Part shown: positions 930-1,356 of the stretch, in pieces
How positions within the stretch are numbered: position 1 is the first letter of the stretch
How the letters are laid out: each line of letters starts with the position of its first letter
NCBI GenBank assembly: GCA_050261495.1
Contig: JBLNDI010000064.1
Span: 1-60,653, forward strand
Length of the DNA stretch: 60,653 nt
Direction of reading: 5' to 3'
Origin: Bacillota bacterium
GTDB taxonomy: Bacteria > Bacillota > Clostridia > Acetivibrionales > DTU013
The notes under the pieces: model-generated
Seen by the model: only the letters and a program-made list of their open reading frames with translations
Told to the model about the DNA's origin: nothing
Database searches by the model: none
Made by a program: the position numbers and the translations under genes

Positions 930-958
930 GAATATGATTGTTTCACCGGTACATAATA
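930..958 (+). promoter_or_regulatory. Putative sigmaG-type (forespore) promoter
   Basis: GAATA (930-934), a 17-nt spacer and CATAATA (952-958) match the Bacillus sigmaG consensus GHATR-N17/18-CATAHTA. It lies immediately 5' of the structured element. Confidence 0.35.
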
Positions 959-1356
959 ATAGCGTAGGGAACATAACGGTTGAGCCAAGATCCATATATG
1001 CTCTGTGCTGGGGTATATATGGGTCGGCCAAAGATTGCATATAGGCCTGGGTGGCTTATATGCAGTCGGAGGGAAGATTTTGCATGGTAGGGAAAGGCTC
1101 TGTTATAGTCAAAACTGGTGTTTGATTATAACAGGATCCCAACTTATCATGCAAGGTCGAGCTAAGATTTTGCAGGGTGCCGTAAATGGTTATATCCGGC
1201 CGGTCGGCTGGATATAGCCGTGCAGCAAGTATCCTGCAGGGTCGAACAAACCATCATTATGGGTTATGAACTGTCCGGTCATGGTCGGGAGATCATGGCC
1301 AGGCAATAAGTTATCCATAATGGTGCAAGGTAGATCGTTATGTTCCTTATGTTATT
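958..1356 (+). ncRNA. Candidate large structured non-coding RNA (six-way junction, nine long helices)
   Basis: Pairings checked by hand: closing helix 958-981/1333-1356; hairpins 989-1025 and 1033-1067; two-helix arms 1076-1158, 1166-1243 and 1252-1325. About 29 G-U pairs versus one C-A mismatch on the + strand. GGGA tetraloop at 1287-1290. No credible ORF. Confidence 0.75.

What the first reader, a model, noticed from the sequence alone, without database searches (positions are those of the whole stretch)
958..1356. ~400-nt six-way-junction structured element: candidate undescribed large ncRNA
Seen: the gap between convergent trkH and chrA folds almost completely. A 24-bp closing helix (958-981/1333-1356) encloses five arms. 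Two are simple hairpins of ~15 bp (989-1025, 1033-1067). Three have two helices each: 1076-1091/1143-1158 with 1099-1113/1121-1135; 1166-1180/1229-1243 with 1186-1201/1206-1221; 1252-1264/1313-1325 with 1272-1286/1291-1305. By my count about 144 bp pair, roughly 70% of the element. Departures from Watson-Crick pairing are about 29 G-U pairs and one C-A on the + strand, and one arm ends in a GNRA (GGGA) tetraloop. Inference: this asymmetry is what selection on a single-stranded + strand fold produces, and not what random decay of DNA inverted repeats produces. It does not resemble tmRNA, RNase P, SRP, 6S, a riboswitch or an intron that I recognise.
Basis: partly seen in the sequence, partly recalled or inferred. 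Interest (0 to 1): 0.92.

Follow-up and report, generated by a model that had tools for sequence, protein, structure and literature searches.

The report
New large structured RNA in spore-formers
The gap between two transporter genes holds a free-standing gene for an abundant, roughly 380-base, star-shaped RNA that occurs widely in spore-forming Clostridia-type bacteria, matches no catalogued RNA family, and has no known function.

Summary
Window 966-1348 (+) folds into a closing helix plus five arms. RNAfold gives -211.6 kcal/mol (z -17) on the + strand and -128.4 (z -7) on the - strand. Ten same-family genomes carry full-length homologues at 73-82% identity. On their alignment 97.1% of 1508 pair cells are standard pairs. 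42 of 138 pairs changed on both sides, against 2-14 in slid controls. No Rfam family matches. The element is single-copy here and its neighbouring genes vary. It has its own conserved two-block promoter in 28 of 33 upstream regions. Identical contigs occur in RNA libraries of several studies. A model of its first 72 nt finds it in 73 of 149 genomes of the order, 22 of 151 of a class sample and 51 of 151 of a phylum sample. All carriers encode the spore protease GPR. I read it as the gene of an abundant RNA family that I could not find described. Its function is unknown, with hints of forespore expression. Helix ends and junction strands repeat one motif, giving a pseudo-six-fold hub.

The parts
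930..934 (+). -35-like promoter block (GAATA)
   Evidence: 28 of 33 distinct upstream regions of homologues have GNATN, then a spacer, then CANNHTW. The spacer is 17 nt in 27 of the 28. The motif ends 5-6 nt before the first conserved RNA bases, and the spacer sequence is not conserved.
952..958 (+). -10-like promoter block (CATAATA)
   Evidence: Same. CATAATA occurs in 16 of the 28; the others are CANATTA or CANTATA.
966..981 (+). P1, 5' strand of the conserved 16-bp closing helix; likely 5' end of the RNA near 966-968
   Evidence: Pairs with 1333-1348 in all 11 aligned sequences; 98.9% of cells are paired and 1 pair changed on both sides. The position of the 5' end is inferred from the promoter spacing. 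Adapter letters abut 974 and 978 in run X1.
982..988 (+). junction strand J0/1 (GAGCCAA)
   Evidence: Invariant or nearly so in alignments A1 and A2.
989..1025 (+). arm 1, simple hairpin of 16 bp
   Evidence: 12 of 19 pairs changed on both sides in 30 sequences, with 97.0% of cells paired against 35-42% when slid.
1026..1032 (+). junction strand J1/2 (GGCCAAA)
1033..1067 (+). arm 2, simple hairpin of 15 bp; carries insertions in longer relatives (34-94 nt)
   Evidence: helices 3 and 4.
1068..1075 (+). junction strand J2/3 (GGAGGGAA)
1076..1158 (+). arm 3: two helices around an invariant internal loop (GAAA opposite CCAA)
   Evidence: Helices 5 and 6 (5 and 4 pairs with two-sided change). Loop columns 161-164 and 214-217 are invariant.
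1159..1165 (+). junction strand J3/4 (GAGCTAA)
1166..1243 (+). arm 4: two helices; branched and longer (up to 171 nt) in long-type relatives
   Evidence: Helices 7-9; arm lengths.
1244..1251 (+). junction strand J4/5 (GAACAAAC)
1252..1325 (+). arm 5 (74 nt): 13 bp, a conserved 7x7 internal loop, 15 bp, GNRA tetraloop (GGGA at 1287-1290)
   Evidence: Helices 10 and 11 (5 and 8 pairs with two-sided change). The arm is 74 nt in 16 of 21 folded homologues. The loop is GNRA in 10 of 11 rows.
1326..1332 (+). junction strand J5/P1 (CAAGGTA)
1333..1348 (+). P1, 3' strand; a 3' end is seen at 1346
   Evidence: In run X1 a contig identical to 1146-1346 runs straight into adapter letters after 1346.
1347..1362 (+). 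U-rich tail after P1 (termination signal, inferred)
   Evidence: T-rich tails follow the 3' strand in most of the 23 full-length loci. The simple terminator scan found none here, because the hairpin before the Ts is the long-range P1.

Best explanation
Window 966-1348 (+) is a free-standing gene for a stable, abundant non-coding RNA of about 380 nt. It belongs to a widespread family that is not yet catalogued.

Shown:
- The RNA folds into a 16-bp closing helix and five arms around a six-way junction, and selection maintains that fold on the + strand.
- It has its own conserved promoter. It ends at the foot of the closing helix, before a U-rich tail.
- It has no constant neighbouring gene.
- It occurs in one to six copies in about half of the genomes of its order, and in a fifth to a third of wider samples.
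- In those samples it is found only in genomes that encode the spore protease GPR.

Inferred:
- It acts in trans as a structural or protein-organising RNA, not by pairing with targets. More than 75% of its bases are paired. The conserved single-stranded parts are six near-repeats of one short junction motif, G-R-G-C-Y-A-A. Each helix meets the junction with the same three pairs: it opens 5'-GAU and closes GUC-3'.
- It is probably made in the forespore from a sigma-G/F-type promoter and is carried in spores. I put this step at about 45%.
For: Fold and strand. The + strand gives -211.6 kcal/mol (z -17.1); the - strand gives -128.4 (z -7.05).

Covariation. On 11 sequences, 138 pairs and 1508 cells:
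- 97.1% of cells are paired, against 37-42% in slid controls;
- 42 pairs have two-sided change, against 2-14 in slid controls;
- 0 of 500 shuffles reach any of the five measures;
- every one of the 11 helices has at least one such pair;
- many G-U pairs are invariant.
Arm 1 on 30 diverse sequences has 12 of 19 pairs with two-sided change.

Architecture. 21 of 23 full-length loci from named Acetivibrio, Clostridium and Thermoanaerobacterium records and from MAGs fold to a closing helix plus five arms. So do 3 of 3 loci from other classes.

Gene-like features.
- Promoter blocks are present in 28 of 33 upstream regions.
- There is one copy in G000.
- Flanking genes are diverse, and no flank family is shared beyond local synteny among 36 loci.
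- No conserved reading frame exists.
- There is no match in phage, plasmid or viral collections.

RNA libraries. 16 of the 20 listed runs are on record as RNA; the 20 rows span 14 studies. Contigs with 0 differences were found in four runs:
- X1: 1079-1175 at word depth 7185, and 1146-1346 at depth 852, in a run of 26.7 million letters;
- X5: 1013-1337;
- X6: 1013-1183;
- X9: 978-1175.
Adapter letters sit directly after 1346.

Distribution with model R1:
- family: 18 of 38 genomes;
- order: 73 of 149 genomes, in 19 of 26 families;
- class sample: 22 of 151;
- phylum sample: 51 of 151.

Spore link.
- All 51 carriers in the phylum sample and all 22 in the class sample are among the GPR-positive genomes (128 of 151 and 119 of 150). 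None of the 23 and 31 GPR-negative genomes carries the RNA.
- One class of SASP genes in the same family has the same promoter layout, G[CGT]AT[AG]-17-AA.AATA, in 7 of 8 loci at a fixed distance from the start codon.
Against: The sporulation step is weak in several ways.
- The RNA is missing from 20 of 38 family genomes although 37 of 38 encode GPR, so it is not needed for sporulation as such.
- In G000 the strict promoter motif stands upstream of only 1 of 4 SASP genes. Even a relaxed version found nothing more among the 4, and nothing upstream of spoVT, gpr or spoIVB.
- The other 22 SASP loci of the family have different conserved blocks. Only 5 of the 22 match the relaxed motif, at scattered positions.
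- 79-85% of the sampled genomes encode GPR and carriers are related to each other, so the 0-of-54 contrast overstates independence.
- The sigma-G/F consensus I compared with is recalled, not taken from a call.

Contigs cannot show strand, true ends or level, and RNA libraries can hold DNA (the tool's own caveat).

Model R1 covers only the first 72 nt. Full length was checked only in the loci that I folded.

No partner protein was found. Hfq (35 of 38) and HutP (32 of 38) do not track the RNA.
Confidence: 0.8

Rival explanations
1. It is a sponge or assembly platform for a ring-shaped or multimeric RNA-binding protein, or a precursor cut into separate hairpin RNAs. The six repeated units (junction motif ending in AAGAU, then a hairpin, then GUCG) would be six copies of one binding or cleavage site.
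For: The same motif flanks all six helices in the window and in distant members. Junction strands are the most conserved bases. The same GUC-GNRA-GAU arrangement caps arms 4 and 5.
Against: No conserved neighbouring protein gene. Hfq and HutP are near-universal in the family and do not follow the RNA. Contigs of 201-325 nt span several arms without breaks, which does not favour complete processing. The arms are individually conserved and differ from one another, unlike homogenised repeat arrays.
Confidence: 0.15
2. It is a cis-acting 3' element of the upstream gene: a giant terminator or stabiliser between convergent genes.
For: The upstream neighbour is co-oriented in 24 of 32 loci and the downstream neighbour is opposed in 19 of 28. 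A U-rich tail follows the closing helix.
Against: Upstream genes belong to unrelated families: TrkH, GNAT acetyltransferases, DUF4829/4830 and a protein with no family. Conserved promoter blocks lie between the upstream gene and the RNA. Some genomes hold up to 6 copies. About 380 nt of covarying structure is far more than termination needs.
Confidence: 0.04
3. It is a DNA-level element: decayed inverted repeats, a MITE- or REP-like repeat, or a recombination site.
For: It is made of inverted repeats. The minus strand also folds better than shuffles (z -7).
Against: There is one copy in a 2.79-Mb genome. 33 G-U pairs would be C-A mismatches on the other strand. Many G-U pairs are invariant across genera and changes are compensatory. 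No phage or plasmid matches. Identical contigs occur in RNA libraries.
Confidence: 0.02
4. It is an already described RNA that is absent from Rfam 15 and from the papers I could search.
For: A family present in a third of a phylum sample is hard to overlook. About 1.7 million PMC articles, subscription journals and all supplements were not searchable.
Against: No Rfam match at permissive thresholds on 16 loci. Four conserved 13-letter motifs occur in no searchable paper. Nothing alike turned up in passages of two genome-wide discovery papers or in five other keyword searches that could have found it.
Confidence: 0.08

Closest known systems
OLE RNA (ornate, large, extremophilic)
   Same: A large, highly structured, free-standing RNA of anaerobic or extremophilic Gram-positive bacteria, with its biochemical function still open (abstracts of PMC9723947 and PMC12054373).
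   Different: About 600 nt, with its own Rfam model, which does not match here. From recall, OLE sits with the oap protein genes; no constant neighbour exists here. OLE has no repeated hairpin-plus-linker hub.
raiA motif RNA / ModT
   Same: An abundant structured RNA of Bacillota whose disruption affects sporulation and aggregation in a Clostridium (title and abstract start of PMC10861870, and abstract start of PMC11706538).
   Different: It is a distinct Rfam family that gives no match here. From recall it is shorter, about 200 nt. Its fold differs.
CsfG
   Same: A forespore RNA under sigma-F and sigma-G, conserved in endospore formers, with no known target (passages of PMC9147052 and PMC3574147).
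   Different: It is 136 nt, with CU-rich loops, and is the reverse strand of the ylbH motif. That Rfam model does not match here. This RNA is about three times longer and its loops are G-rich.
ROOL and GOLLD RNAs
   Same: Large ornate bacterial RNAs of unknown function. From recall, they form RNA-only multimers through loop contacts, which is a model for what GNRA-tipped arms of fixed length might do.
   Different: From recall, they are often found in prophages. This RNA has no match in phage, plasmid or viral collections, and neither Rfam model matches.
Multi-site protein sponges (CsrB/RsmZ type) and type III antitoxin repeat arrays
   Same: Several copies of one short motif presented on or between hairpins in a single RNA.
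   Different: There are no GGA loop motifs. There are no near-identical tandem repeats: only short, 74-85% alike direct repeats. No adjacent toxin gene is present.

Membership tests
Any Rfam 15 family (including OLE, raiA, ROOL, GOLLD, HEARO, Clostridiales-1, 6S, tmRNA, RNase P, SRP, ylbH) | A covariance-model match at or near the family's gathering score | tested here: not met
   Window 600-1800 at E up to 10 gave only four microRNA models at 8-17 bits against gathering scores of 73-500. The whole window at gathering level gave only a T-box elsewhere. On 12 and 3 homologue loci nothing overlapped the element.
CsfG | About 136 nt, CU-rich terminal loops, reverse strand of the ylbH motif | tested here: not met
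   Size and composition differ. There is no ylbH match on either strand.
Sigma-G/F regulon member | A promoter matching the forespore consensus (recalled: GHATR, 17-18 nt, CATXHTA) and dependence on sigG or sigF | tested here: inconclusive
   The motif is present in the window (GAATA-17-CATAATA), and a GNATN-17/18-CANNHTW form occurs in 28 of 33 homologues. The same layout is found at 7 of 8 group-A SASP loci. It is found at only 1 of 4 SASP genes in G000, and a relaxed form at 0 of 3 for spoVT, gpr and spoIVB. Dependence on the sigma factor cannot be tested here.
Dispersed DNA repeat (REP, MITE) | Many copies per genome | tested here: not met
   There is 1 full copy in G000. The other BLAST hits are 15-25 nt at E above 0.5. 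The pattern with 3 mismatches allowed gives 1 hit.
Type III toxin-antitoxin RNA | Near-identical tandem repeats followed by a toxin gene | tested here: not met
   Repeat copies are 74-85% alike over 19-20 nt only. Downstream genes vary: chromate transporter, MshEN protein, TetR, histidine kinase, HAD hydrolase.
Retron or other reverse-transcriptase-linked RNA | An adjacent reverse transcriptase gene | tested here: not met
   No RT domain was found among 10 flank proteins, and no flank family is shared among 36 loci.
Riboswitch or other 5' leader | A constant class of downstream gene on the same strand | tested here: not met
   The downstream neighbour is on the opposite strand in 19 of 28 loci and belongs to varied families.

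The most novel reading that the evidence does not exclude
This is a spore RNA of a new kind. It would be made in the forespore from a sigma-G-type promoter and packed into the dormant spore core at very high copy number. It has a pseudo-six-fold hub, built from six copies of one helix-end-plus-linker motif. Its rigid arms have fixed length and GNRA tips. These features would let it either seat a hexameric protein ring or assemble with itself into an RNA-only lattice. In that form it would serve as a protected store or organiser that is taken apart at germination.
Probability: 0.2. Interest if true: 0.93.

Novelty: categorically new. Interest (0 to 1): 0.86.

Why it matters
Large, ornate bacterial RNAs with unknown jobs are rare, and each one found (OLE, raiA, ROOL, GOLLD) has opened its own line of work. 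This candidate is large, has very strong covariation support, appears abundant in environmental RNA, and is present in a fifth to a third of sampled genomes of a major group of anaerobic spore-formers. That group includes cultured, genetically tractable cellulose degraders. Its hub built from six repeats of one motif is, as far as I know, unlike any catalogued RNA junction, and it is a good cryo-EM target. If the forespore link holds, it would be a structured RNA component of dormant spores, at a time when what RNA does in spores is an open question (passages of PMC7649253).

Tried and rejected
Partner proteins. Hfq (PF17209) is in 35 of 38 family genomes and HutP (PF09021) in 32 of 38. Both are also present in the genera that lack the RNA (g8 11 of 12 each), so neither tracks it. 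This says nothing for or against binding.

Flank cover in RNA runs. On window 500-1900, no contig of the four laid runs covered 500-951 or 1393-1759. X5 and X6 had low-depth pieces of a relative's chromate-transporter gene at 1760-1899. Word depths are per contig and sum over organisms, so they cannot rank genes. The 16 runs that I did not lay (X2-X4, X7, X8, X10-X20) are not used as evidence.

Sigma assignment from the genome itself.
- The strict motif scan of G000 gave 56 hits, 14 of them with a plausible downstream ORF. One is the RNA.
- The others include one SASP gene, spoIIAA (233 nt away) and a PBP2/SpoVD-like gene. They also include an AraC regulator, a RecD2 fragment, EF-G, ParA and a MoxR-like ATPase, most of which are probably chance hits.
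- The scan is too noisy to decide.

Sporulation capacity within the family. GPR is in 37 of 38 genomes and SASP genes in 38 of 38, so these markers do not separate carriers from non-carriers there.

Pairing between junction strands. The GCC of J0/1 could pair with the GGC of J1/2 or the GGU of J5/P1. The pairs are invariant or broken, never compensated, so this stays unresolved. MFE folds of trimmed sequences shuffle these linkers and gave five arms in only 12 of 24, so I did not use that parse.

Other checks.
- Simple promoter and terminator scans found no + strand sigma-70 site upstream of the element and no local terminator.
- There is no conserved coding frame. The longest open frames are 53-129 codons, in differing frames and strands.
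- The 'mirror structure' energy printed is meaningless, because non-standard pairs are not penalised. It is not used.

Literature. One search was wasted on terms that matched unrelated words. The promoter logos of PMC3789822 are in a figure and in Tables S6-S8, which I could not see. [quoted passage not shown]
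Full report
WHAT IS THERE. The 496-base gap between the end of a TrkH gene (3-878, +; PF02386) and the end of a chromate-transporter gene (1375-1944, -; PF02417) folds almost completely.
- RNAfold of 950-1365 on the + strand gives -211.6 kcal/mol against a shuffle mean of -120.4 (z -17.1).
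- The reverse strand reaches only -128.4 kcal/mol (z -7.05).
- On 958-1356 the minimum-energy fold has 156 pairs, 33 of them G-U, and 78% of bases are paired. G-U pairs become C-A mismatches on the other strand, which explains the asymmetry.

CONSERVATION AND COVARIATION.
- BLAST of the element against 40 relatives found full-length matches in 10 genomes of the same family, in seven other genera. They cover at least 388 of 416 bases at 73-82% identity. Three further genomes of other families matched only the first 40-85 bases.
- The 11-sequence alignment gives a consensus fold of 138 pairs. Counted on that alignment, 97.1% of 1508 pair cells are standard pairs, against 37-42% when the 3' partners are slid by 1-3 columns. 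42 pairs show a change on both sides, against 2-14 slid. 0 of 500 column shuffles reach the observed value on any of five measures. Each of the 11 helices has at least one compensated pair.
- More than ten G-U pairs are invariant in all 11 sequences. This is what selection on the + strand RNA predicts.
- For arm 1, an alignment of 30 more diverse sequences gives 12 of 19 pairs with two-sided change and 97.0% of cells paired, against 35-42% slid.

WIDER FAMILY.
- An exact scan of one genome per species with a degenerate pattern from the 5' end found 28 loci. Their record titles name Acetivibrio alkalicellulosi, A. straminisolvens, A. mesophilus, an Acetivibrio MAG, Clostridium polyendosporum and Thermoanaerobacterium butyriciformans, plus MAGs labelled Clostridia, Clostridiaceae, Oscillospiraceae, Eubacteriales and Bacillota.
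- 23 of the 28 loci had room for a whole element. In each, a 3' strand pairing with 17-18 of 18 bases of the 5' strand lies 378-515 nt downstream, mostly followed by a T-rich tail.
- 21 of the 23 fold by plain MFE into a closing helix plus five arms. Arm 5 is 74 nt in 16 of the 21, while arms 2-4 carry insertions.
- Some genomes hold a short (about 380 nt) and a long (about 485 nt) copy.

BOUNDARIES.
- Upstream of the closing helix, 28 of 33 distinct homologue sequences carry two position-fixed blocks, GNATN and CANNHTW. They are separated by an unconserved spacer, 17 nt in 27 of the 28, and end 5-6 nt before the conserved start. In the window these blocks are 930-934 and 952-958.
- This places the start near 966-968.
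- At the 3' side, a contig identical to 1146-1346 in a soil metatranscriptome runs directly into sequencing-adapter letters after 1346. That base pairs with G968.
- I infer a mature RNA of about 380 nt with an almost flush closing helix, trimmed back from a U-rich tail. The strand and the primary ends are not shown by contigs.

A GENE OF ITS OWN.
- The element is single-copy in its 2.79-Mb genome.
- TrkH upstream and the chromate transporter downstream recur in only some close relatives. Elsewhere the neighbours are GNAT acetyltransferases, a DUF4829/4830 protein, an MshEN protein, a TetR regulator, a histidine kinase, a HAD hydrolase and an apolipoprotein N-acyltransferase.
- Among 36 distinct loci, no flank protein family is shared beyond local synteny. 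The largest family is the chromate transporter, in 6 loci.
- There is no conserved reading frame.
- There is no match in phage, plasmid or viral collections.
- The upstream neighbour tends to be co-oriented (24 of 32) and the downstream one opposed (19 of 28). That fits a terminator-ended gene, but the loci are not independent.

RNA LIBRARIES.
- 20 public runs hold the stretch or part of it. 16 are on record as RNA, and the 20 rows span 14 studies. The runs on record as RNA are labelled soil, anaerobic digester, rhizosphere, freshwater and sediment.
- In the four runs laid, contigs with no difference from the window cover 1079-1175 and 1146-1346 (X1), 1013-1337 (X5), 1013-1183 (X6) and 978-1175 (X9).
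- In X1, a run of only 26.7 million letters, those two contigs have word depths of 7185 and 852.
- I take this as a strong hint of a very abundant RNA. The tool's caveats apply: depth is per contig, and DNA can be present in RNA libraries.

DISTRIBUTION.
- A covariance model of the first 72 nt (5' strand of the closing helix, arm 1 and the next junction strand) finds matches as follows:
  - family: 18 of 38 genomes. Whole genera are without it (g8 0 of 12, g9 0 of 3), and so is the other species of the window's own genus.
  - order: 73 of 149 genomes, in 19 of 26 families. One family has 21 of 22, and some genomes hold up to six copies.
  - evenly drawn class sample: 22 of 151.
  - evenly drawn phylum sample: 51 of 151.
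- A few of these matches are weak: 9 of the 51, 1 of the 22 and 1 of the 73 have E above 1e-6.
- The three best loci from other classes fold into the same closing helix plus five arms with the same junction motifs.

LINK TO SPORES.
- G000 encodes SASPs, SpoVT, GPR and SpoIVB.
- In the phylum sample, 128 of 151 genomes encode the germination protease GPR. All 51 carriers are among them, and none of the 23 genomes without GPR carries the RNA.
- In the class sample the figures are 119 of 150 with GPR, all 22 carriers among them, and 0 of 31 without GPR.
- Carriers are kin and most genomes have GPR, so this is suggestive only. Within the family GPR is in 37 of 38 genomes, so the RNA is not required for sporulation.
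- The promoter blocks resemble the forespore sigma-G/F consensus as I recall it for Bacillus subtilis, and they do not resemble TTGACA-17-TATAAT. [quoted passage not shown] The logos themselves were not visible to me.
- As a test within the lineage, 7 of 8 loci of one SASP class in this family carry G[CGT]AT[AG], 17 nt, AA.AATA at 75-82 nt before the start codon.
- The other 22 SASP loci have different conserved blocks. In G000 only 1 of 4 SASP genes carries the strict motif. A relaxed form is upstream of none of spoVT, gpr or spoIVB. I rate forespore expression at about 45%.
- Passages of PMC7649253 report that the roughly 50 most abundant mRNAs of dormant B. subtilis spores are almost all sigma-F/G transcripts. 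The authors suggest spore mRNA mainly stores ribonucleotides. A sigma-G-driven structured RNA would end up in the same place.

ANATOMY AND LIKELY WORKING.
- Read directly from the sequence, five of the six helices, the closing helix among them, open at the junction with 5'-GAU. Arm 5 opens with CAU instead.
- On the returning strand, arms 1-4 close with GUC-3', the closing helix with GUU and arm 5 with GUG.
- The six junction strands are near-repeats of one 7-8-nt motif: GAGCCAA, GGCCAAA, GGAGGGAA, GAGCUAA, GAACAAAC, CAAGGUA. The same strands recur in distant members.
- The tips of arm 5, and of arm 4 in many members, show the same helix end around a GNRA loop. Arm 5's loop is GNRA in 10 of 11 sequences.
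- Arm 5 keeps its length while its internal loop differs between types.
- This looks like a hub grown by duplication of one hairpin unit, with rigid arms of set length. So little conserved sequence is single-stranded that I think target pairing is unlikely.
- The conserved AA of each linker next to the conserved G-C, A-U, U-G pairs suggests either minor-groove packing that locks the hub or six equivalent protein sites. Both readings are inference. I could test neither.

COMPARISON AND NOVELTY.
- All 4227 Rfam models were scanned over the window and 15 homologue loci without a match on the element.
- The nearest known things are the orphan large RNAs of Bacillota (OLE, raiA/ModT), the forespore sRNA CsfG and, for the assembly idea, ROOL and GOLLD. 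This RNA is a member of none of them (see the membership table).
- Keyword and motif searches of the paper library found no description.
- Subscription journals, 1.7 million unsearched PMC articles and all supplements remain blind spots. I leave about 8% for 'already described'.

LIMITS. There is no stranded read evidence, no end mapping and no full-length model. Counts beyond the folded loci rest on a 72-nt module. Taxon names are known only for the 28 titled records. The sigma consensus is recalled.

Noticed in passing
window 55995-56238 (+): A T-box leader scoring 98 bits against a gathering score of 93. It is the only Rfam match at gathering level in the whole window.
   Followed up: no
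G001:C3:774025-774964 (-), not fetched as a locus: The only other species of the window's genus lacks the RNA match. Its gpr gene is in two adjacent pieces (profile positions 1-213 and 214-306), which suggests a frameshift.
   Followed up: no
L087 2629-2894 (+), L092 2678-2943 (+); L093 1246-1318 (-), L095 921-993 (-): In two genomes of one family a large SRP RNA gene lies about 730 nt downstream of the element on the same strand. In two genomes of another family a tRNA gene lies just upstream.
   Followed up: partly
L104-L124 and L056, about 50-110 nt upstream of SASP start codons: One class of SASP genes in this family shares three strongly conserved upstream blocks. In several loci one of them reads GAATAATCTTACAG. 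They differ from the promoter layout of the other SASP class and from that of the RNA.
   Followed up: partly
G125:C36:582-651 and 9980-10049 (-), not fetched: Two copies of the RNA's 5' module with the same score lie 9.4 kb apart on one contig, in a genome with six matches in all. This may be a recent duplication.
   Followed up: no
window 5992-6183 (+): A weak SpoIVB-like (PDZ protease) match with a TAA stop inside the matched stretch.
   Followed up: no
run X6, contig record 15 (5818 letters, depth 328) on window 952-991: A long, deep contig from an anaerobic-digester RNA library matches only the first 40 bases of the element and then diverges. It is probably a relative's copy inside a longer assembled stretch.
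   Followed up: no
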